From positions 4,226 to 68,225 of the forward strand of contig CAWVIV010000020.1 of the NCBI GenBank assembly GCA_963929435.1: a stretch of 64,000 nt of DNA. The letters are read 5' to 3'. Of this stretch, positions 1,225 to 21,774 are shown piece by piece. Numbering within the stretch: the first letter of the stretch is position 1; each line of letters begins with the position of its first letter. This DNA is from an uncultured Bacilli bacterium. Lineage in GTDB: Bacteria; Bacillota_I; Bacilli_A; RF39; UBA660. The notes beneath the pieces were generated by a model. The model worked only from the letters and a program-made list of their open reading frames with translations, made no database searches and was not told where the DNA came from. A program made the position numbers and the translations under genes.

Positions 1225-3540
1225 ATGGCGAAGTTACCTATTTTAATTATTAATAATGCAATACTTTTTCCAGGAATGGAGTATCGTGGTGAGACAGTAG
1301 ATTATTATGAACAAGGAATAGTTGATGCTGTCGATAAGACTGATAATAAAGAATTAGTCATTATCCACTCTATTGATAATATTAGTACTGATGATGTGAC
1401 AGAGTTCCCTAAAATAGGACTTTTAGCAACCCTAACTTTAAAACTTAATATTCCAAACTCAAAAATGCGTTATATCTTTATAGGTTTAAAAAGAATAGAG
1501 ATAAGTTCTTACGAAGAAGAAAATGGTGTTTATTATGCTAATTATAAAGAAATAGAAAATACTACTAATAATTCTTTAGAAGAAGATAAATACTTAAATA
1601 TGTTATATCGTAATTATGAGAGATATGTTAGAGAAATATCTAGTGTTAGTAATGCGATGTTAGGTGAGATATCATCAATTAAAAGCTTAGATAAATTAAC
1701 AGACTTTATAGTATCTTTTCTTAATCTTTCTCCTGATACTAAGAAAAGTTATTTGTATGAGTTAGATCCTATTAAAAGAGCGATTAATTTAGTAAGTCAG
1801 TTAAAAGAAGAGATAAATCTTGCTAAACTTGAAAAAGAAATAGAAGCGAAAGTTCATAAAAGAATAGATGAAGATCAAAGAAAATACTACTTATCTGAGA
1901 AATTAAAAATAATATCTAATGAACTTGGTACTGTTAGTAGTAAGAATATGGTTATAGATAATTATAATAAGAAGTTAAAGAAACTTAAGTGTTCTAATAA
2001 AGTAAGAAATAAGATTAAAGAAGAGATAGAACATTATAAGTCTATAAATGAAAATGTTCCTGAAGCTTCTATATTAAGAGAATATCTTGATTTAATGTTG
2101 AGTCTTCCTTGGGACTATAAAACAAAAGATGTTACAGATATTAAAGAAATAGAAAATACTTTAAATAATAGTCATTATGGTCTTACTAAAGTAAAGGAGA
2201 GAATTGTTGAGTACATTGCTGTTAAACAGAATTCTCCTAAAGAAAAGAGTCCTATTCTTTGTTTAATAGGACCACCTGGTGTCGGTAAGACTTCTCTTGC
2301 TAAAACTATTGCAAAAGCTCTTAATAGACGTCTTGTTAGTGTTTCTGTTGGGGGAGTTAATGATGAAGCAGAGATAGTGGGACATAGAAGGACTTATGTA
2401 GGGGCTCTACCTGGTAGAATAATTAGTGGGATAAGAAAGTGTGGTAGTTCTAACCCTGTCTTTATAATAGATGAGATAGATAAGATGACTAAGAATTACA
2501 GAGGAGATCCTGCTAGTAGCCTTTTAGAAGTCTTAGATAAAGAACAAAATAGTACTTTTTATGATCATTATCTAGAAGAAGAGTATGACTTATCAAGTGT
2601 CTTATTTATCGCTACTGCCAACTATGAAGATCAAATACCACCTGAACTTAGAGATAGATTAGAGATTATTTATTTAGACTCTTATACTGAGTATGAAAAG
2701 TTATCTATCGCTAAAAACTATTTAATACCTAAAGCTTTAGATGAACATGGCCTTACCTCTTTACAAGTTAATTTTAGTGATAAAGCCATACTTGATATTA
2801 TTAATTACTATACTAAAGAAGCAGGGGTTAGGAATTTAGAAAGACTAATATCTAAGATACTTAGAAAGATAGTTAAGCAAGTATTGACTCTTAATGAGCC
2901 TGTCTTTTATGAAGTTACTAGTAAAGACTTAGAGAAGTACTTAGATAGGAAAATATATACTAATAGAGAAAATAAAGAGACTAAATTAAAAGGAGTTGTT
3001 AATGGTCTTGCTTATACCCCATATGGGGGAGATATCTTACCTATAGAAGTAAATCATTATAAAGGAAGTTCTAACTTAGTTTTAACGGGGTCCTTAGGCG
3101 ATGTTATGCAAGAGTCTGCTAAGATTGCTTTAAGTTATATCAAAGCCAATGCTAAGAAGTTTAATTTACCTAAAAGTATCTTTGATGATGATATACATAT
3201 CCATGTTCCTGAAGGTGCTATACCTAAAGAAGGACCAAGTGCTGGTATCGCTCTTACAACCGCTTTAATTAGTGCTTTTACAAACATTAAAATATCTACA
3301 CATATCGCTATGACAGGAGAAATAACTCTTCAAGGAGATATTATCGAAATAGGAGGAGTTAAAGAAAAAGTATTAGGAGCCTATAGAGAAGGAGTAAAGA
3401 CTATTTACTTGCCTTTAAAAAATAAAGCCGATGTTAAAGATGTACCTAAAGAGATAAGAGAAAAGCTAGAGTTTATTTATGTTTCTAATTATAAAGAGTT
3501 ATATAAAAAGTTATTTGTTAGTGAGGAAGTATGCAGTTAA
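1225..3540 (+). CDS. lon: ATP-dependent Lon protease (LonA type)
   Basis: 771 aa with an N-terminal LON substrate-binding domain, Walker A GPPGVGKTS, Walker B FIIDEIDK, and the catalytic serine motif PKEGPSAGIALTTAL in the C-terminal protease domain. Confidence 0.95.
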   Translation: MAKLPILIINNAILFPGMEYRGETVDYYEQGIVDAVDKTDNKELVIIHSIDNISTDDVTEFPKIGLLATLTLKLNIPNSKMRYIFIGLKRIEISSYEEENGVYYANYKEIENTTNNSLEEDKYLNMLYRNYERYVREISSVSNAMLGEISSIKSLDKLTDFIVSFLNLSPDTKKSYLYELDPIKRAINLVSQLKEEINLAKLEKEIEAKVHKRIDEDQRKYYLSEKLKIISNELGTVSSKNMVIDNYNKKLKKLKCSNKVRNKIKEEIEHYKSINENVPEASILREYLDLMLSLPWDYKTKDVTDIKEIENTLNNSHYGLTKVKERIVEYIAVKQNSPKEKSPILCLIGPPGVGKTSLAKTIAKALNRRLVSVSVGGVNDEAEIVGHRRTYVGALPGRIISGIRKCGSSNPVFIIDEIDKMTKNYRGDPASSLLEVLDKEQNSTFYDHYLEEEYDLSSVLFIATANYEDQIPPELRDRLEIIYLDSYTEYEKLSIAKNYLIPKALDEHGLTSLQVNFSDKAILDIINYYTKEAGVRNLERLISKILRKIVKQVLTLNEPVFYEVTSKDLEKYLDRKIYTNRENKETKLKGVVNGLAYTPYGGDILPIEVNHYKGSSNLVLTGSLGDVMQESAKIALSYIKANAKKFNLPKSIFDDDIHIHVPEGAIPKEGPSAGIALTTALISAFTNIKISTHIAMTGEITLQGDIIEIGGVKEKVLGAYREGVKTIYLPLKNKADVKDVPKEIREKLEFIYVSNYKELYKKLFVSEEVCS

Positions 3541-4145
3541 GAGATTTATCTATAGAAAATAGACGCTATGCTTTAAATATTAAAGCCGATATGACTGATG
3601 ATGAGAGATTAGACGTTCTAAAAACAAATGATTATAATTCTACTATGAAAGGAATACATGCTCTACTTGTTAGTGAACCTAGTTTTTTCCTTGTCAACGA
3701 AGACTTTTTAGATACAGCATTAGAAATATCTACTATCTATAATGATAGATATGCTAAAGATAGATTAAGTAAGTTAAAAGAACTAGATGAAAGGGAAATA
3801 GAGAAAAGAGCAAGGGCATATATAGAAAGTGAATATTTGAAAAGAGACTTTATCTTTACTTATGAAGATTATTTAGAGCTATTAGAATTAGATGATTTAC
3901 TATTAAGAGAGACTAACTATAACTATCTTTTAGGGAATCCTTATATTCTTCATTCTATAAGTTACATAAAGAAAGAGTTTAGTGATTATTATAGTGTTAA
4001 TAGGAAAGCAGATAATTATTTACTTACAATATTAAATATCTTAGAGAAAAGAAATTATTATGATACTGAGGAAGTTGTTTCCATTCTAGAATTATTTCCT
4101 GATAGAGAAGATGAAAAGATTATTACTTTTGCAAAGAAGATATAG
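3531..4145 (+). CDS. Hypothetical protein (204 aa), start overlaps the lon stop
   Basis: Long ORF in AT-rich DNA, overlapping lon by 10 nt (translational coupling). No recognisable motif. Its last 12 codons and stop lie inside the 57-bp direct repeat. Confidence 0.6.
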   Translation: MQLRDLSIENRRYALNIKADMTDDERLDVLKTNDYNSTMKGIHALLVSEPSFFLVNEDFLDTALEISTIYNDRYAKDRLSKLKELDEREIEKRARAYIESEYLKRDFIFTYEDYLELLELDDLLLRETNYNYLLGNPYILHSISYIKKEFSDYYSVNRKADNYLLTILNILEKRNYYDTEEVVSILELFPDREDEKIITFAKKI

Positions 4146-4165
4146 TAATAATCTTTTTTTCTTGT
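4109..4165. repeat. 57-bp direct repeat, left copy (flanks the IS91-like element)
   Basis: AGATGAAAAGATTATTACTTTTGCAAAGAAGATATAGTAATAATCTTTTTTTCTTGT is identical (57/57) to 5970-6026. It ends in CTTG(T). Confidence 0.95.
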
Positions 4166-4233
4166 ATCATTTCTTGTGTCATTTAATGTCTCATTTATTG
4201 TATCACTTATTGTGTCAATTATATTGTTTTCAT
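4162..4233. repeat. Array of six degenerate 12-bp periodic repeats (TTGTRTCAY core)
   Basis: TTGTATCAT 4162, TTGTGTCAT 4174, ATGTCTCAT 4186, TTGTATCAC 4198, TTGTGTCAA 4210, TTGTTTTCAT 4224. Spacing is 12,12,12,12,14 nt. The array starts at the CTTG junction of the element. Confidence 0.7.
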
Positions 4234-4318
4234 TATTTACTATTGAAGATGTATGGCAAATGTGATAAAGTTTATATTGGTTGGTACTTAGGAAACTTTA
4301 GAAGCTTTGAGTCGTCAG

Positions 4319-4350
4319 GAGTTCGATGTAAGTTACATCGAACTCTTTTT
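4319..4350 (+). terminator. Perfect 13-bp-arm palindrome followed by T5 (terminator-like hairpin inside the element)
   Basis: GAGTTCGATGTAA-G-TTACATCGAACTC (4319-4345) followed by TTTTT. Confidence 0.5.
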
Positions 4351-4391
4351 GATATATAAGGAAAGTGCGTTTAAAAGCGTTCAAAACAAAA

Positions 4392-4417
4392 GTGATACCA
4401 ATGTAATTTGGTATCAC
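4392..4417 (-). terminator. Terminator of the transposase / Zn-ribbon ORF unit
   Basis: GTGATACCA-N8-TGGTATCAC. On the minus strand it is followed by TTTTGTTTT and lies 25 nt after the stop of ORF 4442-4672. Confidence 0.6.
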
Positions 4418-4441
4418 GACAAAAAGAATAAAGCAAAAACT

Positions 4442-4672
4442 TTAAATTTTAATTTGTTCCATAGTAGAACCGCAGTAAGGACATTCCATTTTAGGAATGT
4501 CTTTCTTTTTGATAAATTTTAAAAATCCAATCTGTTCGTTAACGATAAACTCAGGAACAGGATCTAACTTGCCACATTTCTTACATTTGAAAATATATAT
4601 TTTTTCATCTTTACCAAAATAATTTTTGGCACTATTTAATAATTTTTCTATTTCTTTGTTTTCATTTTTCAT
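4442..4672 (-). CDS. Small zinc-ribbon protein (76 aa) carried by the IS91-like element
   Basis: Two CxxC pairs (CKKCGK ... CPYCGS). It lies 17 nt downstream of the transposase stop on the same strand. Confidence 0.55.
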   Translation of the reverse strand: MKNENKEIEKLLNSAKNYFGKDEKIYIFKCKKCGKLDPVPEFIVNEQIGFLKFIKKKDIPKMECPYCGSTMEQIKI

Positions 4673-12050: not shown

Positions 12051-13071
12051 ATGGAACGTGTTGTAACTAGTGAAGAGTTAGAAGATGATGGTATTGTTGA
12101 TAATACTATTAGACCTGAGGTATTAGATGAATATATAGGACAAAGTGAAGTTAAAGAAAATATTAGAGTCTTTATAGAAGCTAGTAAGATAAGAGGAGAA
12201 GTATTAGACCATGTTTTATTATATGGTCCTCCTGGACTAGGTAAAACTACACTTGCCTTTATTATTGCAAGAGAACTTGGTGTTAATATTAAAACTGCTA
12301 GTGGTCCATCAATTGAAAAAAGTGGAGATTTAGCAGCGATACTATCAACTCTTGAACCAGGAGATGTCTTATTTATAGATGAGATTCATAGAATGCCAAG
12401 ATATATTGAAGAAATACTATATCCTGCTATGGAAGACTTTACTTTAGATATAATAATCGGTGGGGAAGGAAGTTCTCGTAGTATTAAAATAGACCTACCT
12501 CCATTTACCTTAGTTGGTGCGACAACAAGAGCAGGAGATTTATCGGCACCGCTTAGAGACCGTTTTGGTATTATTTCTAAATTAAAATTCTATACAACAG
12601 AAGAGTTAACAGAAATCATTAAAAGAACAAGTAGAGTCCTAGATATGCCAATAGATGATGAAGCAGCAGTTGAACTTGCTAAAAGAAGTAGAGGAACTCC
12701 TCGTATTGCTAATCGTCTCTTTAAAAGAGTACGTGACTTTGCTCTAGTAGATAAAAAAGAATCTATTGATTTAGAAGTAATGGAAAAAGCTTTAGAGAGA
12801 CTAAAAGTCGGTAAGAGTGGACTAGATGAGACAGACCATCAACTATTAAGAGCTATTATTGAACGTTTTAATGGAGGCCCTGTAGGAATAGATGCTCTAG
12901 CTTCTTCAATTGGTGAAGAAACATCTACTATTGAAGATGTAATAGAGCCTTATCTTTTACAAGAAGGCTATTTAAAAAGAACAAAGTAGAGGTAGAATGG
13001 TAACAGAAAAAGCATATAAAGAGCTTAATATAAACTATCAAGGAGGTTTATTTAACCTAGATATAGAATAG
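12051..13071 (+). CDS. ruvB: Holliday junction helicase RuvB, interrupted by an apparent +1 frameshift near the 3' end
   Basis: Walker [10 protein letters not shown], Walker B FIDEIHR, sensor [10 protein letters not shown]. The track ORF stops at 12987-12989 (..LKRTK*). Removing one A from AAA 12983-12985 gives ..[19 protein letters not shown].. (canonical RuvB tail) ending at 13069-13071. Confidence 0.85.
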
Positions 13072-13081
13072 GGGGATATTT

Positions 13082-14110
13082 ATGAAGTTAGAAGAAATTT
13101 GATTATAATTTACCTGAAGAGTTAATCGCTCAAACACCAATAAACACAAAGAGATGCTTCAAGACTTATGGTTCTTGATAAGAAAACAGGAGAAATTGAA
13201 CATAAACATTTTTATGATATTATAGATTGTCTTAATCCAGGGGACACTTTAGTTTTAAATGATACTAAAGTCTTGCCTGCTAGATTAATAGGTGAAAAGA
13301 TGAGTACTAAAGCCGTTATAGAAGTTTTGTTACTAAAGAATGTTGAAGGTGATACTTGGGAGACTTTAGTTAAACCTGCTAGACGTATTCATGTAGGGGA
13401 TGTTGTATCTTTTGGTGAAGGGTTATTAAAGTTAACATGTACTGAAGTTAAAGATGAAGGTATTAGAGTATTTGAGGCAAGTTATGAGGGAATATTCTAT
13501 GAACTATTAGATAAACTTGGTACTATGCCACTACCTCCATATATTCATGAAAAGCTAGAAGATAAAGATAGATATCAGACAGTGTATGCTAAAGAAGTAG
13601 GTAGTGCTGCTGCTCCTACTGCAGGACTTCATTTTACAAAAGAGTTACTTAAAAAAATAAAAGAGAAAGGTATAAATATCGTATATCTAACTCTTCATGT
13701 TGGACTTGGTACGTTTTAGACCTGTTAAAGTAGAAGATGTTACGAAACATAAAATGCATAGTGAATTTTATTCTTTAAGTAAGAGCGTTGCCGATACTTT
13801 AAATAAAACAAGAGAAAATGGTAAAAGAATAATTGCTGTTGGAACAACTTCTACTAGAACATTAGAGACAGTTTATGGTAAGTTTGGAGAGTTTAGGGAA
13901 GACTCTGGCTTTACAGATATCTTTATTTATCCAGGTAAAGAGGTTAAGAGTATAGATGGACTTATTACTAATTTTCATTTACCTAAATCAACTCTTATTA
14001 TGTTAGTATCTGCTATAGCAGGAAAAGATAATATCTTAAATGCATATAATGTAGCAGTTAAAGAAAAATATAGATTCTTCTCCTTTGGAGATGCAATGTT
14101 TATAAAATAG
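13082..14110 (+). pseudogene. queA: tRNA preQ1(34) S-adenosylmethionine ribosyltransferase-isomerase QueA, three apparent +1 frameshifts
   Basis: Fragments read MKLEE / FDYNLPEELIAQTPI / [14 protein letters not shown]...HVGLGTF / [13 protein letters not shown]...[16 protein letters not shown]. The frame breaks at 13095-13100, 13139-13144 and 13714-13717, each inside a short homopolymer. Confidence 0.85.
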
Positions 14111-14120
14111 GAGGTTCACT

Positions 14121-15105
14121 ATGGGAGAATTAAAAGAATATATAAAAACTGCAAGGATTTATTATAAGGTTGCAGGTAGTGATAAAGTACATACAATTAC
14201 ACCATTAAACTACAGCTTTTTAAAGAAAAAAAATTTTTGATGTATCACCTGGATTTAATACTGTATATTCTGTAAAAAAGGATATTAGTTATATTCATTT
14301 TTATAAGACTTTAGGTGATGATAACTTTTCTATAGAAGCTTCTTCTGATACAAAAGTTGATATTACTATGGACGATAAAGAAAAATATAGTTTTAGAGTT
14401 TATGCAAAAGATATAACTATAAGAAATGAGAAAGAAGATGAAGTTATATTCAGTGCAGAAATAAAGGATGCTTATAAGGTTAAATACTTTAAGGGAAATG
14501 ATTTTACAGTTGAAAATGCTAAAGAAACAATTTTACAAGGTAACCCAGGTACTCTTATTCTAACAATTGAATCATCTTCTTTGAAAGTAAGTGATGTAAG
14601 TGAATATATTAGTCTTTTTACTCATTCAGGTGATGAGATAAAATTTAATAATATTAATTGTAATTTACTTGAATTTGAGACAGATGCTGAAAATATTGAG
14701 GTCCAAAATAGTAATATTAAAAACTCTTATTGTAGCTTTAATAACTGTGCTGAGCCTATTTTTGTAAATTCTTTTTGGAAAGTAAATAAACCTTTAAGAT
14801 ATGTAGATGGTACATTAGGTAATAGTGAAAATGGTATTACACTTACAGATGAAACCTTTAGTAAAGAAAGTATAGATTTAGGAAGAGCATATGCAACTTA
14901 TGGACTTAGAGAATTTTTAAATAAAGTTGAAGCTAATAATGAGGCGGATATTAGTCCTAAACTTGAAGTGTTAGATGAAAGAAAAAGAGCTTTAAAAGAA
15001 GAGTATGATAGACTTCTTGCTACCTTAGAAGATAAAAAAGATGTCATAATAAATGGGCACCAGAAACGTAAAGTTAAAAATTTAGTAAAGAAAAAAGAAA
15101 ACTAA
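14121..15105 (+). CDS. Hypothetical protein (about 327 aa), apparent +1 frameshift at T4 14217-14220
   Basis: AGGAGG lies 6 nt upstream of ATG 14121. The ORF stops at 14220-14222. Deleting one T joins it in frame to track ORF 14368-15105 (..LNYSFKEKKIFDVSPGFNTVY..). It has a C-terminal coiled-coil/basic tail. Confidence 0.55.
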
Positions 15106-15116
15106 GTAAGTTAGAT

Positions 15117-15157
15117 ATAATTAAAACCAGAGAAACTTTAGAAGTCTCTGGTTATTT
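15117..15157. repeat. 41-bp direct repeat, left copy, containing a terminator hairpin
   Basis: ATAATTAAAACCAGAGAAACTTTAGAAGTCTCTGGTTATTT matches 17292-17332 at 39/41 positions. The hairpin AACCAGAGA/TCTCTGGTT is followed by T7, acting as terminator of the upstream gene. Confidence 0.9.
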
Positions 15158-15280
15158 TTTTATAATAAATGCAATTAAATGTTGACTTTTCTCAAAATGG
15201 GTATAAAATATAACATAAAAAAAGAAAAATGTATCATTTTTTTGAAAAAATGATATAATATAATTGAAGGTGATGAAAAA

Positions 15281-16615
15281 ATGATAAGATATGTAAAACT
15301 AGAGAATTATAAGTCTCTTGTTAATTTAGAAGTTAATTTTATGAAGAAAAAAAATGAACCTAAAAATATTGTAGTTATTTATGGAGAAAATGGAATAGGT
15401 AAATCTAATTTTGCAAATTCATTTTATACACTTAATGAAACTATGAGTACTATGTCTTCAATAGAAATGTTAAAACAAATACTTGAAAAACCAAATGAAA
15501 ATAATAAAGCTATGTATGACGATTTTACTACAAAATATATAAAAACAAGATTCAAAGATATTAAAATGATTATTAATGATTGTAAAACTATTGATTCCAA
15601 AGACAATATGATTCTTGAATTTGGATTTATGTATAATAATAAAAATGGAATATATCATATTGAAATGGATAATGAAGAGATAGTTAGAGAAAGACTAGAA
15701 TATGTTGTCAATAAAAATCAAACATATTTCTTTGATATAAATAAAGATAATACTAAAGTAAATCCCAATATTTTTATAGATAAAGATTATTATAATGAGT
15801 TTTTAGACTTACTTGATAAATATTGGGGAAAACATTCCTTCTTATCAATTTTATCTTATGAGATAGAAGACAAGAAAAATGGCTATATAAACAAGAAAAT
15901 ATCTAAAAATCTTTATACTGTACTAGCATATTTGAAAACAATATGTACTAAAATTAAAGGCGGAAATCATACTGAATTTGGAATTATTGGTACTAAGCAT
16001 AATTTAATCTATAACTTAGAAGAAGGTAAGATATCACTAAAACGTGAAAAAGAACTTAATAATAATGAGTATTTGCTAAATGAAATTTTTACTACATTAT
16101 ATTCTGATTTTAAAAAAGTTTATTATAAAAAAACAATTGAAGATAATTATATAACATATAAACTTTATAGTAAAAAAATGATATATGGTAAGATAATGGA
16201 TGTAGATTTTTCATTAGAATCTACAGGTACTCAAAATATTTTAGCATTGATACCATATTTAATATCAGCTTGTGAAGGACAAACTGTAATTATAGATGAA
16301 TTAGATACAGGTATACATGATTTGTTAGTTAAAAACTTGTTAGAATGTATTGTTAAATATGTCAAAGGACAATTGATTATTACAACTCATAATACAATGC
16401 TAATAGACTCCTCAATACCAAATGAAGATATATATGTTTTTAATGCCAATAGTAAAGCTTTTAAAGAATTAATTGCCATAACAGACTTTGATGGAAGAAT
16501 TCATAAAAATAACAGTCCTAGAAAAAAATACCTTAGTGGATTATATGGTGGTATACCTATGTTTACAGATATTGATTTTGACGATATATTAGAGAATTTA
16601 AATAGAGGTAATTAA
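15281..16615 (+). CDS. ABC-type AAA ATPase (AAA_21/AAA_15-like), OLD/AbiLi/AriA-like
   Basis: Walker A GENGIGKSN, signature-like ESTGTQNIL, Walker B / D-loop VIIDELDTGIHD, H-loop ITTHNT. 444 aa with no nuclease domain of its own. Confidence 0.8.
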   Translation: MIRYVKLENYKSLVNLEVNFMKKKNEPKNIVVIYGENGIGKSNFANSFYTLNETMSTMSSIEMLKQILEKPNENNKAMYDDFTTKYIKTRFKDIKMIINDCKTIDSKDNMILEFGFMYNNKNGIYHIEMDNEEIVRERLEYVVNKNQTYFFDINKDNTKVNPNIFIDKDYYNEFLDLLDKYWGKHSFLSILSYEIEDKKNGYINKKISKNLYTVLAYLKTICTKIKGGNHTEFGIIGTKHNLIYNLEEGKISLKREKELNNNEYLLNEIFTTLYSDFKKVYYKKTIEDNYITYKLYSKKMIYGKIMDVDFSLESTGTQNILALIPYLISACEGQTVIIDELDTGIHDLLVKNLLECIVKYVKGQLIITTHNTMLIDSSIPNEDIYVFNANSKAFKELIAITDFDGRIHKNNSPRKKYLSGLYGGIPMFTDIDFDDILENLNRGN

Positions 16616-17199
16616 TGAGAAAGTTAAATTATACAAAAGCACTTGTAATAGTTCATGGAAAGTCTGAAAAGCAAATATGTCAATATATAAAGAATAAACT
16701 TAGGTTGAAAATAGAAATTTATAGCGATAAGAATGGTGAGAAAGCTATACAAATAACTAGTTTAAAGAATACCCTTAATAATAAAATCTTTAAGTCGTAT
16801 AGGAACTTCATTAATACTTTTGAAGATATAGAATTAATTGATAATAAAAATATAAATAAAGATTTTAAAATATTCATAATTATGGATACTGATGATTGTA
16901 GTGAGGAAGAAAAAAGAAAGTTTATTAATAAGGAGATGTTTAAAGGACACTGGGCATATGATTATATTGTTCCTATCTATAATATTCCGGAATTAGAAAC
17001 AGTACTTACAGACGCGAAAGTTCCTTTTACAAAAACAGGGATAAAAAGGAAAAAAGAATATATTAAACTTTTTCCTACAGATCCAAAATATACTAAAACT
17101 GATGAAGTTCAAATTAAAGAATTACTTAATAAATTAAAGAAACAAAAGAATACAAATTTAAATGAATTTTTAGATTTTTGTTTAAAGGTTTCTGATTAA
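16615..17199 (+). CDS. Small RloB-like / Toprim-like partner protein (194 aa)
   Basis: The start overlaps the ATPase stop (TAATG). ALVIVHGKSEKQ, IIMDTDD and YNIPELETVL resemble the RloB/Toprim pattern cEGekTE ... fDrD ... SNPcFElWl. The first acidic residue is replaced by His. Confidence 0.5.
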   Translation: MRKLNYTKALVIVHGKSEKQICQYIKNKLRLKIEIYSDKNGEKAIQITSLKNTLNNKIFKSYRNFINTFEDIELIDNKNINKDFKIFIIMDTDDCSEEEKRKFINKEMFKGHWAYDYIVPIYNIPELETVLTDAKVPFTKTGIKRKKEYIKLFPTDPKYTKTDEVQIKELLNKLKKQKNTNLNEFLDFCLKVSD

Positions 17200-17291
17200 T
17201 ATGTAACTTCACAGTAACTATTTTGAAATTATAAATAAAAATGCTATAATGTAAATGACTAGGACTGATAGCTATTAATGGTACGTCAGTT

Positions 17292-17332
17292 ATAATTAAG
17301 ACCAGAGAAACTTTAGAAGCCTCTGGTTATTT
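17292..17332. repeat. 41-bp direct repeat, right copy, containing a terminator hairpin
   Basis: ATAATTAAGACCAGAGAAACTTTAGAAGCCTCTGGTTATTT, with hairpin ACCAGAG/CTCTGGT. Confidence 0.9.
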
Positions 17333-17417
17333 ATTGTCTATAAGGAAAATTACTACAATATTCTATAAGTTTAAAAAGTTTTTTAAATTTATTATTGCAT
17401 TATTGTTGCATATAATT

Positions 17418-17477
17418 AAGAAAAAAATAATACAAATTTAAATAATTTTAGATTTTAGTTTAAAGAAGTTTGATTAA
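17418..17477 (+). repeat. Degenerate copy of the last ~60 nt of gene 16615-17199
   Basis: AAGAAAAAAATAATACAAATTTAAATAATTTTAGATTTTAGTTTAAAGAAGTTTGATTAA compared with 17137-17199 AAGAAACAAAAGAATACAAATTTAAATGAATTTTTAGATTTTTGTTTAAAGGTTTCTGATTAA (about 85% identity, including the stop). Confidence 0.8.
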
Positions 17478-17557
17478 AAAATATAAATACAATTGCTATA
17501 GAAGCTTTAGAAGGCTTTCTATTTTTCACTTTTTATGGAAAAGTTAGGCATTTATTG

Positions 17558-17586
17558 TTGAAAAACTTGATTTTATCAGATATAAT
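17558..17586 (+). promoter_or_regulatory. Putative sigma-A promoter of tig
   Basis: TTGAAA (17558-17563), 17 nt spacer, TATAAT (17581-17586), 25 nt upstream of the tig start. Confidence 0.5.
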
Positions 17587-17611
17587 AAGAGACGTATTGG
17601 AGGAAATGTTT

Positions 17612-18898
17612 ATGGAAAAGAAAGAAACTAAAAAAGAAACAAATAAGAAAAATTATCATAATATTGAAATAAAAGTTGAAGGAAAAGAGTGGACTGATGC
17701 TGTTGATAAGGCTTTTAAAGATAAAGTTAAAAAAGTTGAAGTAGACGGTTTTAGAAAAGGCAAATGTCCTAAAAATATCTATGATAAGAAATTTGGACAA
17801 GATTATTTACTAGATGCAGCAGACTTAGTGATTCAAGATGCTTATACTAAAGCTTTAAAAGATAATGATTTAGTACCAGTAGTACAACCTGAACCTAACT
17901 TAAAGAGTTTAGATGAAAATAGTGTTACATTTACATTTAAAATTATTACTAAACCAGAAGTTAAGATTAAAAAATATAGAGATTTAGGAGTTAAACCTAA
18001 TGAAGTTAAAGTAACTAAAGAGGAAATCGATCATGAAATTGAACATTTACTTGAGAGATATGAAGAATTAGTTAATAAAGATGAAAATGGTAAAGTTGAA
18101 AACGGTGATGTTGCAGTTATTGACTTTGAAGGATTTAAAGATGGAGAGCCTTTTGAAGGTGGTAAAGGAGAAAACTATTCTCTAGAAATAGGAAGTGGTA
18201 CTTTTATTCCTGGTTTTGAAGAACAATTAATTGGTATGAAGTCAGGTGATGAGAAAGATATTAAAGTAACATTCCCTGATGATTATATGGAAGAGTCTCT
18301 AAAGGGACAAGAAGTTACATTTAAAGTAAAAGTACATGAAATTAAAACTAAAGAAAAAAGAGAATTAGATGAAGACTTCTTCTTTGACCTAGGTATTGAA
18401 GGTGTTAATGATGAGATGAGTCTTAGAAAAGAAGTAGAAGCTAATATAAAAGCTAATAAAGATATGGAAGAAGAAAATAAATATATCGATAAACTACTTG
18501 AAGAAGTATCTAAGAATGTAGAAGTTGATATTCCTGAAGAAATGGTTAATGAAGAAGTAGATAGATTACTTAGAAGAACAGAACAACAAATGGCTATGCA
18601 AGGAATTAGTTTAGATTTATATTATCAAGTTACTAAATCTACTGAAAAAGATTTAAGAGATCAACTTGAAAAAGAAGCTTATCAAAACGTATTATATCGT
18701 TTAATGCTTGAAGAGATTATGAATATGGAGCATATTGAAGTAAGTGAAGATGAAGCTATGGAAGAAGCTAAACGTCTTGCTGAACGTTATAATATGGAAC
18801 TAGATGACTTCTTAAATCAATTTGGTGGTATTGAAATGGTACAATATGACCAAGAAATGAGAAAAACTATTGAATTATTAAAAGAATTAAATAAATAG
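17612..18898 (+). CDS. tig: Trigger factor (ribosome-associated PPIase chaperone)
   Basis: N-terminal ribosome-binding motif GFRKGKCP, central FKBP domain (VIDFEGF.DGEPFEGG...FIPGFEEQLIGMK), C-terminal helical arm. GGAGG lies 8 nt upstream of ATG 17612. Confidence 0.9.
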   Translation: MEKKETKKETNKKNYHNIEIKVEGKEWTDAVDKAFKDKVKKVEVDGFRKGKCPKNIYDKKFGQDYLLDAADLVIQDAYTKALKDNDLVPVVQPEPNLKSLDENSVTFTFKIITKPEVKIKKYRDLGVKPNEVKVTKEEIDHEIEHLLERYEELVNKDENGKVENGDVAVIDFEGFKDGEPFEGGKGENYSLEIGSGTFIPGFEEQLIGMKSGDEKDIKVTFPDDYMEESLKGQEVTFKVKVHEIKTKEKRELDEDFFFDLGIEGVNDEMSLRKEVEANIKANKDMEEENKYIDKLLEEVSKNVEVDIPEEMVNEEVDRLLRRTEQQMAMQGISLDLYYQVTKSTEKDLRDQLEKEAYQNVLYRLMLEEIMNMEHIEVSEDEAMEEAKRLAERYNMELDDFLNQFGGIEMVQYDQEMRKTIELLKELNK

Positions 18899-18954
18899 TT
18901 GATACTTTTTAAAATATTTGGTAAAATTACTAAAGAAAAAAGGAGGGATAACTT

Positions 18955-19122
18955 ATGGCAAAAAAGCTTGGACATAGACAAAAGAAGACTTTTGTATGCT
19001 CAGTTTGCGGTAATGAGAATTATAGAGAAGAGAAAAATGTAAATAATACTCCAGGAAGAATGGAGATTAGTAAATATTGTAAATTCTGTGGTAAACACAC
19101 AACTCATAAAGAGAAGAAATAA
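18955..19122 (+). CDS. rpmG: 50S ribosomal protein L33 (zinc-ribbon type)
   Basis: Not in the ORF track (55 aa). MAKKLGHRQKKTFVCSVCGNENYREEKNVNNTPGRMEISKYCKFCGKHTTHKEKK matches the L33 pattern C..C..NY...KN......L.L.K.C..C.KHT.H.E.K. AGGAGGG lies upstream. A hairpin ATAACAGTCAT/ATGACTGTTAT at 19127-19151 follows. Confidence 0.85.
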   Translation: MAKKLGHRQKKTFVCSVCGNENYREEKNVNNTPGRMEISKYCKFCGKHTTHKEKK

Positions 19123-19175
19123 TAATATAACAGTCATTTAATGACTGTTATATATTATAGAAAGGAGTAAGTAGA

Positions 19176-19733
19176 ATGGTTAATTCAAATGATTTTAAAC
19201 CAGGTATGACTATTCAATTTGAAGGCGGTATCTATACTATAATTGAAAGTCAACATGTTAAACCAGGTAAAGGTGCAGCGATAGTTAAAGCTAAGATGAA
19301 AAATTTAAGAACAGGTTCTATTGTAGAGAAAACATTTAATGCAGGTGTTAAAGTAGAAACAGCACATATCTCTAAGAAAACTATGCAATTCTTATATAGT
19401 ATGGGAGATACTTATTATTTCATGAGTATGACTGACTATGAACAAATAGAACTTGATAAGAGTGTTATAGGGGAAGATGCTAAATACTTAAAAGAAAACT
19501 TAGAAGTTGAAATTACTTTCTTTGAAGGTGAGATGTTAGGATTATCATTACCTGATAAAGTAGTTATGAAAGTAGTTAAGACAGAAGATGCCGTTAAAGG
19601 AAATACTTCAAGCGGTGCAATGAAAAATGCCGAACTTGAGACAGGTATGACTATTCAAGTACCATTATTTATTAAGCAAGATGAAGATATCTTAGTTAGT
19701 ACTAAGGATGGTAAATATGTATCTCGTGCATAA
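19176..19733 (+). CDS. efp: Elongation factor P
   Basis: 185 aa. NDFKPGMTI..EG.IY.IIE.QHVKPGKGAA.V..KMKNL.TG is the EF-P signature, including the conserved KPGKG loop. Confidence 0.95.
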   Translation: MVNSNDFKPGMTIQFEGGIYTIIESQHVKPGKGAAIVKAKMKNLRTGSIVEKTFNAGVKVETAHISKKTMQFLYSMGDTYYFMSMTDYEQIELDKSVIGEDAKYLKENLEVEITFFEGEMLGLSLPDKVVMKVVKTEDAVKGNTSSGAMKNAELETGMTIQVPLFIKQDEDILVSTKDGKYVSRA

Positions 19734-19746
19734 TTTTAATAATTAA

Positions 19747-19780
19747 AATTGGTCTTAAATATTAGGATCAATTTTTATTT
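19747..19780 (+). terminator. Terminator after efp
   Basis: AATTGGTC (19747-19754) pairs with GATCAATT (19766-19773, one G-U), followed by TTTTATTTTT. Confidence 0.55.
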
Positions 19781-19882
19781 TTCTATATTAGAGTTAACTA
19801 CTATAAAAATAAACACTTTACTTCCATATTTATTCATGGTAATATTAAGTTAACAAAGATAAAGAAAGGAAGTAATGAATAT

Positions 19883-19996
19883 ATGACTAATTCAATTTAT
19901 CAGGGTAAAATAAATCGTCAATTCTGGGGTAAAATAATTCGTCATTTTTCTAAAATCTCAGGTTTACAATGTGTTACCTGGGGGGGGGGCGTTTAG
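19883..19996 (+). CDS. Possible 37-aa peptide ORF containing a G10 tract
   Basis: GGAAG-type RBS upstream. MTNSIYQGKINRQFWGKIIRHFSKISGLQCVTWGGGV contains an imperfect 24-bp tandem duplication (QGKINRQF / WGKIIRHF). The G10 run lies 7 codons before the stop. Coding status is uncertain. Confidence 0.3.
   Translation: MTNSIYQGKINRQFWGKIIRHFSKISGLQCVTWGGGV
19980..19989. repeat. G10 homopolymer tract
   Basis: Ten consecutive G in about 30% GC DNA. This is the only long G/C run seen in the window. Confidence 0.95.
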
Positions 19997-20048
19997 ACTA
20001 CCACAATGGTAGTTTAAGTAACTTAGTTACTTTCTTTCATAGTGTAAA

Positions 20049-20082
20049 AAGAATAGAGTAGAGGAATATTCTATTCTTTTTA
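20049..20082 (+). terminator. Terminator after the small ORF / before the surface-protein genes
   Basis: AAGAATAG (20049-20056) pairs with CTATTCTT (20071-20078), followed by TTT. Confidence 0.55.
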
Positions 20083-20181
20083 TAATGTTATAATAATTGA
20101 TATTTAGGATTTTATGTGTTAGTATTTAATTATAGTATAAAGAGTAGATAATAAGGGCAATATATGGAAAGGTGGAGAAAA

Positions 20182-21774
20182 ATGAAAAAGAAAATAATAA
20201 TATCATTGACTTTAGTAATAGTAATATTAACTACAGTATTTAGTGTATTTACAGATAATAAAAGTATTGTAAGTTATAAGCCTTATAAAGATGGTAATAA
20301 TAGTAGTCAGATGTTAAGAAAGATACTAGCAGATAATACTTTACAACAAGAAAAAGAGAATATGTTTAATTATGCTAGTAATGGAAGTTATATTGCATCA
20401 TTCACTGAAGAGGGATCCAAATATGGAAGTGAACCTAGTCAAATAACAAATGGGTTATTCAGTATGGAAGATGAAGATGGGACTAGTTATTATTTTAGAG
20501 GAAATGTAGATAATAATAATGTACAGTTTGGAGAATATGATAGTGATTATTATGTATATAGCTATAGCGGTATGTATTTCCAAAGTTTAGAAGCTTGCCA
20601 AGAATATAATTCAAGTTGTAGTGAGGCTAACAAAGTAAAACTTGCAAATGCTGGAGATAAAATGTACTGGAAGATAATAAGAGTAAATGGAGATGGAAGT
20701 TTAAGATTAATTTATAACGGAACAAGTATTGCTCATAATTATAGTGATTTAGATAATTCTTCTTTAGTAGGATATGTCCCATATAATTTAGAGTCTAATG
20801 ATCCAAAATATACAGGTTATACCTATGATAATGGAAAAGATTCCTTTGTAAAGAAAGAAGTAGATACATGGTATGAGAATGCACTAGGGAGTACTGTATA
20901 TGACAGTAAAGTAGTTGGAGGAAGATTTTGTAGTGATAGTAGTGGATATAAGAAAGATACAGAATATGGCTTTCCTGATTCTGGTATTGATGTTTTTTCG
21001 AGTCTTGATAGATTAGGACAAAGTCTTATTAATGATGCAAAATCTAATGCACCGGCATTAAAATGTCCAAGTACAACTGAGAGTTATGGAGGAAGTTATA
21101 GACTTAAAGCAGGGTTGATTACGGCGGATGAGATGGTTCTAGCAGGAGAAGCACTGATAGTAACAGGTAATAGTTACTTAGGAGGATTTCAAACGACAAG
21201 GTCGACGTCGACATATATTGAGCCTAACTTTTGGACAATGACTCCAACGGCATATTTGAAAATAAGCGGTTATGCTTCAACTATTCGATATAATATACTT
21301 GTTTGGACTTACAATATGTTTCTTATTTATAATGATGTATTAGATTCTCTTGGAGTAAGACCAGTAATTAATTTAGATAAAAACACAGTAATAAAGGGTA
21401 CTGGAACAGAAGATGATCCATATGTAGTAACAGAACCTACAAAATATGAAGGCGTAATAACAACAGAAGAAGGAAGTAGTAGTAATACAGAAAATGCTTT
21501 TGATAATGTAACAATACCAAATGATGTAACATGGACAAGCCAAGATGATTCTATAGCAAGAATAGAGAATGGTAAGATATTAGGATTAAAAGAAGGAACT
21601 ACAACAATAACAGGAGTAAGTAGTGATGGATTAACTACATATGAGATAAAAGTAACAGTAATAAAGAATCCTATTACTATGAGTAGTATCTATATAGTTA
21701 TAGGAATGTTATTAATATTAATACTTGGAACAACTATAGTTTTATATTATAAGAAGAAATTTAGAGATTTATAA
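20182..21774 (+). CDS. Membrane-anchored surface protein, paralog 1 (shared extracellular module plus Big_2-like Ig domain plus C-terminal TM)
   Basis: GGTGGAG RBS upstream of ATG 20182. N-terminal TM helix, shared module NMFNYASNG..YYFRGN.DNNNVQFGEY..MYWKI.RVNGDGSLRLIYNG..GVRPVINL, Big_2-like WTSQDDSIARIENGKILGLKEGTTTITGVS, and a C-terminal TM plus basic tail. Confidence 0.7.
   Translation: MKKKIIISLTLVIVILTTVFSVFTDNKSIVSYKPYKDGNNSSQMLRKILADNTLQQEKENMFNYASNGSYIASFTEEGSKYGSEPSQITNGLFSMEDEDGTSYYFRGNVDNNNVQFGEYDSDYYVYSYSGMYFQSLEACQEYNSSCSEANKVKLANAGDKMYWKIIRVNGDGSLRLIYNGTSIAHNYSDLDNSSLVGYVPYNLESNDPKYTGYTYDNGKDSFVKKEVDTWYENALGSTVYDSKVVGGRFCSDSSGYKKDTEYGFPDSGIDVFSSLDRLGQSLINDAKSNAPALKCPSTTESYGGSYRLKAGLITADEMVLAGEALIVTGNSYLGGFQTTRSTSTYIEPNFWTMTPTAYLKISGYASTIRYNILVWTYNMFLIYNDVLDSLGVRPVINLDKNTVIKGTGTEDDPYVVTEPTKYEGVITTEEGSSSNTENAFDNVTIPNDVTWTSQDDSIARIENGKILGLKEGTTTITGVSSDGLTTYEIKVTVIKNPITMSSIYIVIGMLLILILGTTIVLYYKKKFRDL

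What the first reader, a model, noticed from the sequence alone, without database searches (positions are those of the whole stretch)
15117..17332. Two-gene ABC-ATPase plus mini Toprim/RloB-like cassette bracketed by 41-bp direct repeats: a split-OLD (AbiL/PARIS-like) defence candidate in front of tig
- **What the sequence shows.** A 444-aa ABC-type ATPase (GENGIGKSN, ESTGTQN, VIIDELDTGIHD, TTHNT) is translationally coupled (TAATG at 16613-16617) to a 194-aa protein. That protein carries VIVHGKSEKQ, IIMDTDD and YNIPELETVL.
- **Flanks.** The pair has its own promoter region and is flanked by a 41-bp direct repeat (39/41 identical). Each copy contains the terminator hairpin of the upstream housekeeping gene. 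The 2.2-kb unit therefore looks like an insertion that duplicated its target.
- **Established knowledge.** An ATPase combined with a Toprim/RloB nuclease, fused or split, is the architecture of OLD nucleases, Gabija GajA, AbiLi/AbiLii and PARIS AriA/AriB.
- **Inference.** This is an anti-phage cassette. The small partner is much shorter than AriB and has His where the first Toprim/RloB glutamate is expected, so it may be a divergent or undescribed subtype.
Basis: partly seen in the sequence, partly recalled or inferred. Interest (0 to 1): 0.75.

Follow-up and report, generated by a model that had tools for sequence, protein, structure and literature searches.

The report
AbiL-like two-gene phage-defence cassette
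A movable two-gene unit, an ATP-driven sensor plus a small nuclease-like partner of an unnamed family, sits between two copies of a terminator in a spot where related gut bacteria carry other anti-virus genes or nothing; it is a divergent variant of the known AbiL/PARIS type of phage defence.

Summary
A 444-aa ABC ATPase (15281-16615) overlaps by TAATG a 194-aa gene (16615-17199). A direct repeat brackets the pair (core 39/41; 72 nt at 81%), and each copy holds a terminator hairpin.

- **ATPase.** It is AbiLi-like (PADLOC 4.5e-41).
- **Small protein.** Its family (361 clusters at 50% identity) has no Pfam model. It is a distant RloB/AbiLii relative: hhalign P 6e-4 with all motifs in the same order, and Foldseek E 3e-4 (TM 0.5) to a phage RloB-like protein. 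It keeps DxD but has His, never Glu, at the Toprim glutamate (92/98).
- **Linkage and mobility.** The two genes are adjacent in all eight homologous loci checked. These include an E. faecalis conjugative plasmid, an integrase-bearing island and Oenococcus phage phi9805.
- **The site.** In the genus the queA-tig gap is empty, or holds an Abi_2 gene, a PHP pair, a variable 245-aa ORF, or this cassette. Cassette-free alleles (PHP-pair allele aside) have one hairpin; cassette alleles have two.
- **Earlier occupant.** A 69-nt remnant of an older small-gene 3' end lies downstream.

Verdict: a new variant of a known kind. Defence function and mechanism are inferred, not shown. Interest is moderate.

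The parts
14368..15105 (+). Variable 245-aa ORF. It is a separate cargo gene of the queA-tig hotspot, not part of the cassette.
   Evidence: It has no Pfam, PADLOC, NCBIfam or PHROG hit. It is absent from L001, where queA is followed directly by repeat copy 1. Divergent versions occur in L015 (246 aa, 29% identity) and L019 (300 aa, 50% identity).
15106..15177 (+). Direct-repeat copy 1. The core is 15117-15157 and the terminator hairpin is 15126-15152, followed by a T-run.
   Evidence: the repeat finder family D1. The core is found exactly twice in the window, against 0 expected. The RNA fold is -12.5 kcal/mol with z -3.75.
15182..15275 (+). The cassette's own promoter region and ribosome-binding site: TTGACT-16-TAAAAT at 15182-15209, TGATATAAT at 15251-15259, and GAAGGTGATG at 15266-15275.
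   Evidence: Promoter scan and the sequence read directly. DNA homology with the cassette copy in a different genomic context (L011) starts at 15182, and the homologous promoter is visible in L011.
15281..16615 (+). AbiLi-like ABC (AAA_21) ATPase of 444 aa, the presumed sensor and regulator.
   Evidence: Pfam AAA_21 1.1e-20. PADLOC AbiLi 4.5e-41 and AriA 3.9e-22. PHROG 5836 5e-40. It is 32% identical over its full length to the ATPase on an E. faecalis plasmid and 34% to the phage phi9805 ATPase.
16615..17199 (+). A 194-aa mini RloB/Toprim-like protein with the signature HGxSE ... DxD ... NxxLE ... TN. It is the presumed nuclease effector.
   Evidence: None of 98 family members has a Pfam hit. 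PADLOC AbiLii hits are weak. The AF2 model has pLDDT 94.9. Foldseek matches a phage RloB-like protein at E 3.2e-4. hhalign against RloB gives P 6.4e-4.
17281..17352 (+). Direct-repeat copy 2. The core is 17292-17332 and the hairpin is 17301-17327. It probably terminates the cassette transcript.
   Evidence: The fold is -11.2 kcal/mol with z -2.76. It is orthologous to the tig-proximal hairpin of L018.
17409..17477 (+). Remnant of the last ~70 nt of a diverged small-gene copy, stop codon included.
   Evidence: the repeat finder families D5 and D7 (84-86% identity). A local alignment pairs 17128-17199 with 17409-17477. The same remnant is present in L001.
17495..17525 (+). Degenerate third hairpin copy at the ancestral terminator position, just upstream of the tig promoter.
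   Evidence: the repeat finder family D4. In the alignment of tig-upstream regions it falls in the same column as the single hairpin of cassette-free relatives. The fold is weak: -6.8 kcal/mol, z -0.7.
17558..18898 (+). tig promoter (17558-17586) and the trigger factor gene. This is the conserved right border of the hotspot.
   Evidence: Promoter scan at 11/12. Trigger_N/FKBP_C/Trigger_C domains in L001. The promoter is conserved in all eight alleles.

Best explanation
**What it is.** Window 15182-17199 is a self-contained two-gene module with its own promoter. It is a divergent branch of the AbiL-type ABC-ATPase plus Toprim-like (RloB-like) anti-phage systems. It sits as mobile cargo in a small variable hotspot between queA and tig.

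**Proposed working (inferred by analogy with PARIS and, more loosely, OLD).**
- The 444-aa ATPase forms a complex with the 194-aa effector and keeps it inactive.
- A phage-derived trigger sensed by the ATPase releases or activates the effector.
- The effector then cuts nucleic acid at a metal site formed by DxD (D91, D93), E18 and E128, with His14 where canonical Toprim domains have the catalytic glutamate.
- The result is stalled infection or stalled growth, that is, abortive infection.

**How it sits in the genome.**
- The cassette does not carry the flanking repeat. Two copies of the local terminator hairpin bracket it. The upstream copy ends transcription coming from the left, and the downstream copy ends the cassette transcript.
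- The duplication fits gain and loss by recombination at or around this hairpin. It does not fit transposition.
- A leftover 3' end of an older small-gene copy shows the site has turned over more than once.
For: **Shown**
- The ORFs, the overlap and the repeat are as described.
- The ATPase matches AbiLi best.
- Pair linkage is strict. The small-gene homologue follows a ~445-aa AAA_15/21 ATPase directly in every homologous locus examined.
  - Chromosomal contexts: L007 and L011.
  - E. faecalis conjugative plasmid.
  - An integrase-bearing island, at 28% identity.
  - L101 and L104.
  - Temperate Oenococcus phage phi9805.
- The unit is mobile. Homology across different contexts covers only 15182-17199.
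- Presence and absence vary within the genus and even within the species. L015 has tig at 99% identity and lacks the cassette; L017 is empty.
- The same site holds an Abi_2 gene in L020 (8e-38) and a PHP-domain pair in L016. This is how a defence hotspot behaves.
- The small protein is related to RloB.
  - Foldseek gives E 3.2e-4, probability 1.0 and TM 0.5 to a phage RloB-like protein.
  - hhalign gives P 6.4e-4 with controls.
  - PADLOC gives weak AbiLii, mad4 and HEC-01B hits in family members.
  - The OLD C-terminal region 6njv/6njx is among the top PDB hits. The literature reports the same entry as the best match for AbiLii (PMC13064643).
- Conserved residues sit where the Toprim fold has its active-site elements: HG after strand 1 and DxD after strand 3.

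**Established knowledge**
- RloB and DUF4276 are Toprim-superfamily nucleases (PMC12065111).
- AbiL and MADS3-4 group with the ABC-ATPase plus TOPRIM systems (PMC11464382).
- In PARIS, AriA sequesters AriB, which cleaves tRNA once released (PMC11464382, PMC12409363).
Against: - No phenotype data exist for this family.
- AbiL itself has no established mechanism.
- The window protein misses the Pfam RloB model entirely, and the PADLOC AbiLii hit is only E 0.01.
- Matches to solved Toprim structures are not significant: E at least 0.039 and TM about 0.3.
- The canonical catalytic glutamate is replaced by His. The equivalent E26A change kills AriB activity (PMC12409363), so nuclease activity cannot be taken for granted.
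- The ATPase scores far lower on the AbiLi model (4.5e-41) than bona fide AbiLi proteins do (1e-83 to 1e-98).
- No flanking repeat occurs in the other contexts. The duplication therefore says little about how the cassette moves in general.
Confidence: 0.68

Rival explanations
1. The pair is mainly a toxin-antitoxin-like addiction module that stabilises the mobile elements carrying it. Under this reading the small protein is a toxin or regulator, the ATPase is its antidote, and there is no dedicated anti-phage role.
For: - Pfam names AAA_21 a 'putative AbiEii toxin, Type IV TA system'.
- The pair sits on a conjugative plasmid, an integrase island and a prophage.
- PARIS itself behaves as a type II TA pair (PMC13064643).
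Against: - In the window and in L007, L011 and L018 the pair lies on the chromosome between housekeeping genes. No element is there to stabilise.
- It shares its site with an Abi_2 abortive-infection gene.
- TA behaviour and phage defence are not mutually exclusive.
Confidence: 0.15
2. The small protein is not a nuclease. Loss of the Toprim glutamate has turned it into a catalytically dead adaptor or nucleic-acid-binding partner, and the ATPase or an unlinked host factor is the real effector.
For: - His replaces the catalytic Glu in 92 of 98 members, and no member has Glu.
- The E26A change inactivates AriB (PMC12409363).
- Similarity to solved Toprim nucleases is weak.
Against: - DxD (96/98 and 94/98 acidic), E18 (94/98) and E/D128 (95/98) remain nearly invariant. 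That is the pattern expected of a working metal site, and His can bind metal or act as a general base.
- No other effector domain is present in the ATPase.
Confidence: 0.12
3. The flanking repeat is not a target duplication. The cassette arrived with its own terminator, which resembles the resident one only because donor and recipient were the same locus in related strains. The whole queA-tig interval would have been swapped by homologous recombination in the flanking core genes.
For: - Alleles differ as whole blocks. The 245-aa ORF of the window shares only 29% identity with that of the conspecific L015, and two types of hairpin-tig spacer exist.
- The cassette has no repeat in other contexts.
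- No recombinase or transposase is present in the cassette or elsewhere in the queA-tig interval of the window.
Against: - This explains how the allele spreads, not how two hairpins first came to bracket the cargo.
- The PHP cargo of L016 is also bracketed by two hairpin copies, while the empty allele and the ORF-only alleles have one.
Confidence: 0.35
4. It is a housekeeping RecF/RecR-like repair pair (an SMC-like ATPase plus a Toprim protein), not a defence system.
For: The only support is a weak N-terminal match to RecF (TIGR00611, E 1e-4, 21.6 bits against a cutoff of 172) and to SMC_N.
Against: - The pair is present or absent among conspecific and congeneric genomes.
- It occupies different loci in different species.
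- It is carried by a plasmid and a phage.
- All RecF/SMC scores lie far below the family cutoffs.
Confidence: 0.02

Closest known systems
AbiL (AbiLi ABC ATPase plus AbiLii/RloB, PF13707), Lactococcus plasmid pND861 type
   Same: - It is a two-gene operon with the ATPase first and a small partner second, with overlapping or abutting stop and start.
- The ATPase's best defence-model hit is AbiLi.
- The partner shares motifs with RloB in the same order: [E/H]G..E, DxD, xxE and a C-terminal N/T motif.
- The partner shares the RloB fold at Foldseek E 3e-4.
- It is carried on mobile elements.
   Different: - The partner is 194 aa and fails the Pfam RloB model. Canonical partners of 206-245 aa score 4e-34 to 7e-44.
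- His replaces the first glutamate.
- The RloB SNPCFELWxLLH motif is replaced by PI[YF]NxxLE.
- The ATPase scores about 40-55 orders of magnitude weaker on the AbiLi model than canonical AbiLi proteins.
PARIS (AriA ABC ATPase plus AriB DUF4435/Toprim tRNase)
   Same: Both pair an AAA_15/21 ATPase with a separate Toprim-superfamily partner, and both are found on phages and mobile elements. PARIS is the only member of this group with a solved mechanism, so it serves as the working model (PMC11464382).
   Different: - AriA models score lower than AbiLi (3.9e-22).
- There is no DUF4435 hit.
- The partner is about 100 aa shorter than the 35-kDa AriB.
- No PARIS chain appeared among the top 50 PDB fold matches.
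OLD-family nucleases and Gabija GajA (fused ABC ATPase-Toprim)
   Same: They share the ATPase plus Toprim logic. The Xanthomonas OLD C-terminal region (6njv/6njx) is among the top PDB matches.
   Different: - The two parts are split here, not fused.
- The PDB match is not significant (E 0.039, TM 0.3).
- The catalytic Glu is absent.
MADS MAD3/MAD4 (ATPase plus DUF4276 Toprim)
   Same: There are weak hits: the ATPase to MAD3 (1.3e-9; mad3 1.1e-11), and 4 of 98 small-family members to mad4.
   Different: - The NCBIfam MAD3 score is 37.7 bits against a cutoff of 420.
- No methylation or other MADS genes are nearby.
- No DUF4276 Pfam hit is found.

Membership tests
AbiL | AbiLi-type ABC ATPase | tested here: met
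   PADLOC AbiLi PDLC02335 scores 4.5e-41 and is the best of 45 defence-model hits. This is weaker than canonical AbiLi proteins, which score 1e-83 to 1e-98.
AbiL | AbiLii partner belonging to RloB (PF13707) | tested here: not met
   Neither the window protein nor any of 98 family members has a Pfam RloB hit. PADLOC AbiLii scores E 0.01. Only remote homology is seen: hhalign P 6.4e-4 and Foldseek E 3.2e-4 to a phage RloB-like protein.
AbiL | Bicistronic ATPase-then-partner operon | tested here: met
   The TAATG overlap. The same order and adjacency hold in all eight other homologous loci examined.
AbiL | Abortive-infection phenotype against phage | not testable with these tools
   This needs expression and phage challenge.
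Toprim superfamily | Three-layer alpha/beta fold with four parallel strands | tested here: inconclusive
   The AF2 model (pLDDT 94.9) has the succession b1-a-b2-a-a-b3-a-b4-a. Its strand order in the sheet could not be read, because no model coordinates are returned. PDB Toprim hits are weak: OLD 6njx at E 0.039, and Topo II and ParE at 0.05-0.3, with TM about 0.3. The match to a phage RloB-like model is significant, and RloB is assigned to the Toprim superfamily in PMC12065111.
Toprim superfamily | Conserved glutamate on the strand 1-helix 1 loop | tested here: not met
   His occupies the aligned position. 92 of 98 members have His and none has Glu. A glutamate four residues later (E18, 94/98) aligns with the second E of the RloB motif EGxxTE.
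Toprim superfamily | DxD motif after strand 3 | tested here: met
   D91 is present in 96/98 members; position 93 is D in 89 and E in 5. The motif lies at the end of strand 85-91 in the model.
PARIS | AriB with a DUF4435 Toprim domain | tested here: not met
   There is no DUF4435 hit and no AriB hit in PADLOC.
MADS (MAD3/MAD4) | MAD3 equivalog score and a DUF4276 partner | tested here: not met
   NF047739 scores 37.7 bits against a cutoff of 420. No DUF4276 hit is found.
Transposon / insertion sequence | Transposase, terminal inverted repeats and a short target-site duplication | tested here: not met
   The unit contains only the two genes. No terminal inverted repeats bracket it. The repeat is 41-72 nt and belongs to the site, being absent around the cassette in L007 and L011.

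The most novel reading that the evidence does not exclude
The HGxSE mini-RloB proteins and their ATPases form a separate, unnamed class of ABC-ATPase/Toprim-like defence systems in Bacillota mobile elements. Their effector would use a His-containing active site, meaning a different metal, chemistry or substrate from OLD, PARIS and AbiL. In addition, the queA-tig terminator hairpin would serve as an integrase-free recombination site through which unrelated defence cargos are exchanged: this pair, Abi_2, and a PHP-domain pair.
Probability: 0.2. Interest if true: 0.6.

Novelty: new variant of a known kind. Interest (0 to 1): 0.42.

Why it matters
- **Detection gap.** Neither Pfam nor NCBIfam has a model for the small partner, and the PADLOC AbiLii model matches it only weakly (E 0.01). 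Defence-finding pipelines that require a recognised AbiLii/RloB partner would probably miss this system. The family has 361 clusters at 50% identity and occurs in gut Bacilli, an Enterococcus conjugative plasmid and an Oenococcus phage. Adding it would close a small gap in the ABC-ATPase plus Toprim group.
- **Active-site question.** The invariant His at the position of the catalytic Toprim glutamate is a natural experiment. That glutamate is essential in AriB, so testing this protein would show how flexible the Toprim active site is.
- **A compact hotspot.** The queA-tig site shows empty, single-cargo and double-cargo alleles plus a remnant of an earlier occupant. It is a convenient case for studying how integrase-less defence cassettes are gained and lost in small-genome gut Bacilli.

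Tried and rejected
- **Pfam, NCBIfam and PHROGs on the small protein.** Nothing usable was found. A Pfam scan of all 98 family members gave only scattered chance hits.
- **Profile search against PDB sequences.** It returned 0 hits at E up to 10.
- **First structure model.** The model from a shallow 21-sequence alignment was poor (pLDDT 73.7, and only one of five models was good). Its fold search was uninformative. I replaced it with a model from a 98-sequence alignment.
- **Foldseek against the PDB with the good model.** Nothing scored at or below E 0.001. Only the viral library gave significant hits.
- **Single RloB sequences against the family profile.** Too weak to use: probability 4.7% and 0.07%. 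An RloB alignment had to be built.
- **Terminator scan.** It found none, probably because it accepts loops of 3-8 nt only and the loop closed by the 8-bp stem is longer. Direct folding was used instead.
- **Flanking repeats around the cassette in L007 and L011.** None was found. I therefore rejected the idea that the repeat is part of the mobile unit.
- **Origin of the 17353-17408 spacer.** Searches in the cassette and in the whole window found no match. A simple tandem duplication followed by deletion is not demonstrated.
- **536-aa ORF at 20164.** I checked whether it is related to the 536-aa gene next to the cassette in L007. It is not.
- **Rfam on 13000-20500.** No RNA family matched.
- **Transposon or IS origin and RecF/RecR-like housekeeping function.** I considered both and rejected them (see the membership rows and the rival explanations).
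Full report
**1. The observation**

The sequence features are all there.
- ORF 15281-16615 encodes a 444-aa protein with Walker A GENGIGKSN, the signature-like ESTGTQN, Walker B VIIDELDTGIHD and TTHNT.
- It overlaps, through TAATG at 16613-16617, ORF 16615-17199. That ORF encodes 194 aa with VIVHGKSEKQ, IIMDTDD and YNIPELETVL.
- The repeat 15117-15157 / 17292-17332 is 39/41 identical. It extends to 72 nt at 81% (15106-15177 / 17281-17352).
- Its 30-nt core occurs twice in 64 kb, against none in 100 shuffles.
- Both copies fold into an 8-bp (copy 1) or 7-bp (copy 2) G+C-containing stem followed by a T-rich run: -12.5 and -11.2 kcal/mol, z -3.75 and -2.76.
- A promoter-like TTGACT-16-TAAAAT lies at 15182-15209. 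An extended -10 and an RBS follow.

**2. The two proteins**

*The ATPase.*
- It matches Pfam AAA_21 at 1.1e-20.
- Among defence models it matches AbiLi best (4.5e-41), ahead of AriA (3.9e-22), HEC-01A, PDC-M07A, mad3 and PtuA.
- NCBIfam gives only a far sub-threshold MAD3 hit.

*The small protein.*
- It has no Pfam, NCBIfam or PHROG hit, and only E 0.01 to PADLOC AbiLii.
- It belongs to a real family. There were 719 hits in the 90%-clustered database, none with a Pfam domain among the 120 listed. There are 361 representatives at 50% clustering, nearly all 185-210 aa.
- None of 98 diverse members hits any relevant Pfam family.
- Fifteen members hit AbiLii (best 5.8e-5), four hit mad4 and two hit HEC-01B. 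All three models describe small partners of defence ABC ATPases.

**3. Is the small protein RloB/Toprim-like?**

- With the 98-sequence alignment AlphaFold gave pLDDT 94.9 and pTM 0.91. The element order is b1(9-13)-a-b2-a-a-b3(85-91)-a-b4(118-123)-a-a-a-a.
- Against the PDB nothing reached E 0.001. The top hits did include the C-terminal (Toprim) region of Xanthomonas OLD (6njx/6njv, E 0.039) and Topo II and ParE Toprim domains. A 2026 review reports 6NJV as the best structural match for AbiLii itself (PMC13064643).
- Against predicted viral structures two matches were significant. One is an Oenococcus phage phi9805 protein (E 7.6e-6, TM 0.50/0.63), which proved to be a family member. The other is an annotated RloB-like protein (E 3.2e-4, probability 1.0, TM 0.50/0.46).
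- I then fetched canonical AbiL pairs from plasmids.
  - C. beijerinckii: ATPase AbiLi 1e-97; partner RloB 7e-44 and AbiLii 1e-28.
  - Klebsiella: a gene annotated abiLI plus a 206-aa RloB partner.
- From these I built a 51-sequence RloB alignment and compared profiles. hhalign gave score 30.2 and P 6.4e-4 over 165 aligned columns. Four motifs align in the same order:

| Small-protein family | RloB |
|---|---|
| HG-KSE | EGxxTE |
| FIIMDxDD | WCVFDVD |
| NLE | CFE(LW) |
| TN | NPST |

- Controls: reversed profiles scored 12-13, and the best of 30 column shuffles scored 19.7.
- I conclude the protein is a remote RloB relative. RloB has been assigned to the Toprim superfamily, defined by a Glu on the b1-a1 loop and DxD after b3 (PMC12065111).
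- In this family DxD is kept: D91 in 96/98 members, position 93 acidic in 94/98. The second acidic residue E18 (94/98) and E/D128 (95/98) are also kept. The Toprim Glu position is His in 92/98 members and never Glu.
- In AriB the equivalent E26A mutation abolishes tRNA cleavage (PMC12409363). The substitution is therefore functionally meaningful, and nuclease activity remains an inference.

**4. Linkage and mobility**

- In every homologous locus examined, the small gene directly follows a ~445-aa AAA_15/21 ATPase:

| Locus | Context |
|---|---|
| L007 | polysaccharide locus, 72% nt identity |
| L011 | between cca and rpsD, 79% nt identity |
| L095 | E. faecalis conjugative plasmid, beside a tyrosine recombinase; small protein hhalign 1e-51 |
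| L098 | island with integrase plus HTH_17; small protein 28% identical |
| L101 | ISL3-type genes nearby |
| L104 | DUF4143 and SLFN_AlbA_2 neighbours |
| L105 | temperate phage phi9805, between the early genes (replication, activator) and the small terminase subunit gene; ATPase 34% identical, E 6e-79 |

- DNA homology between the window and the copies in other contexts covers 15182-17199 (L011) and 15225-17200 (L007). That is the span from the promoter to the stop codon.
- Those copies have no flanking repeat and no similar hairpin.
- The mobile unit is therefore the promoter plus the two genes. The repeat belongs to this site.

**5. The site**

- Scanning one genome per species for tig relatives gave six genus-level loci with ruvB-queA ... 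tig synteny. H below stands for the terminator hairpin; hairpin positions come. Together with L001 and the window they give this allelic series:

| Allele | Content between queA and tig |
|---|---|
| L017 | one degenerate H only (169 nt between queA and the tig anchor; empty) |
| L015 (tig 99%, same species) and L019 | variable 246- or 300-aa ORF, then H |
| L020 | Abi_2 gene (8e-38), then H |
| L016 | H, PHP-domain gene plus 150-aa gene on the minus strand, degenerate H |
| L018 | H, pair, H |
| L001 | H, pair, H, spacer, remnant, degenerate H |
| window | 245-aa ORF, H1, pair, H2, spacer, remnant, H3 |

- The single hairpin of the cassette-free alleles L015, L017, L019 and L020 lies at the position of the window's H3 and of L018's second hairpin, just upstream of the conserved tig promoter.
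The unit is present or absent among close relatives and is bracketed by a duplicated local terminator.
- The remnant (17409-17477) is about 85% identical to 17128-17199, stop codon included. An earlier copy evidently occupied the site and decayed before or while the present one was installed.
- The mechanism of duplication is not shown.
  - A 41-72-nt repeat, with no transposase, no inverted repeats and no recombinase in the interval, argues against transposition.
  - Two routes remain: single-crossover integration and excision through the hairpin region, or replacement of the whole interval through the queA and tig flanks. Whole-block differences between alleles show that the second route certainly occurs.

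**6. Mechanism**

- *Shown:* a conserved, translationally coupled ATPase-effector pair; its mobility; its co-location with other abortive-infection genes; a conserved acidic/His site on a Toprim-like scaffold.
- *Inferred by analogy with PARIS* (PMC11464382, PMC12409363): the ATPase holds the effector inactive and senses a phage cue, and the released effector cleaves nucleic acid and aborts infection. The substrate and the trigger are unknown.

**7. Comparison and novelty**

- The system works like AbiL and PARIS.
- As for membership, it meets the AbiLi and operon criteria. It fails the RloB model criterion and the Toprim glutamate criterion. It fails the PARIS (DUF4435) and MADS criteria.
- I therefore file it as a new variant of a known kind. 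It is a divergent AbiL-like branch whose partner family has no Pfam or NCBIfam model and is annotated 'hypothetical protein' wherever a name exists.
- A specialist would find it a useful addition rather than a surprise. The His-for-Glu active site and the compact hotspot with a remnant are the most interesting points.

**8. Data caveat**

- Relative to the conspecific L015, the window carries four single-base homopolymer insertions in ruvB and queA, at about 12983, 13095, 13145 and 13714. They create apparent frameshifts and are probably assembly errors.
- The two cassette ORFs have the same lengths as in near-identical relatives. They appear unaffected.

Noticed in passing
window 12983, 13095, 13145, 13714: The window has four single-base insertions in homopolymer runs relative to the conspecific locus L015. 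They truncate ruvB (312 aa against 340) and split queA into two ORFs (13168-13719 and 13697-14110). They look like long-read assembly errors rather than real pseudogenes.
   Followed up: yes
window 14368-15105; L015 5099-5839; L019 4907-5809: A fast-evolving ORF of 245-300 aa has no family assignment (the only hit is a weak Toastrack DUF4097 match, E 0.078). It occupies the queA-proximal part of the hotspot in some genus members. Only the C-terminal ~40 residues (...EDxKDVIIN...KxLVKKKEN) are well conserved between alleles.
   Followed up: partly
L020 4815-5753; L016 4498-5810 (minus strand): In sister species the same queA-tig gap carries an Abi_2 (AbiD/F-like) gene, or a PHP-domain protein plus an unknown 150-aa protein. 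The gap is therefore a small defence hotspot. The PHP pair may be an undescribed system.
   Followed up: partly
window 17409-17525: A 69-nt remnant of a diverged small-gene 3' end is followed by a degenerate copy of the terminator hairpin. It is the trace of an earlier cassette at the same site and is also present in L001. The origin of the 56-nt spacer 17353-17408 is unexplained.
   Followed up: partly
window 13048-13067 versus L001 4906-5420: A second small indel site lies between ruvB and queA. L001 carries two small ORFs there (56 and 95 aa) that the window lacks.
   Followed up: no
L105 (Oenococcus phage phi9805, NC_023559) 2642-4492: The temperate phage carries the same ATPase plus small-protein pair between its early genes (replication, activator) and the small terminase subunit gene. 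The small gene is annotated with a late start (149 aa). The ORF from the upstream ATG is 167 aa, includes HGKSE, and diverges or truncates at its C-terminus.
   Followed up: partly
L001 11444-13918: The cassette-bearing relative has an IS66-family transposase and a 261-aa ORF downstream of efp. I did not check whether the window has them.
   Followed up: no
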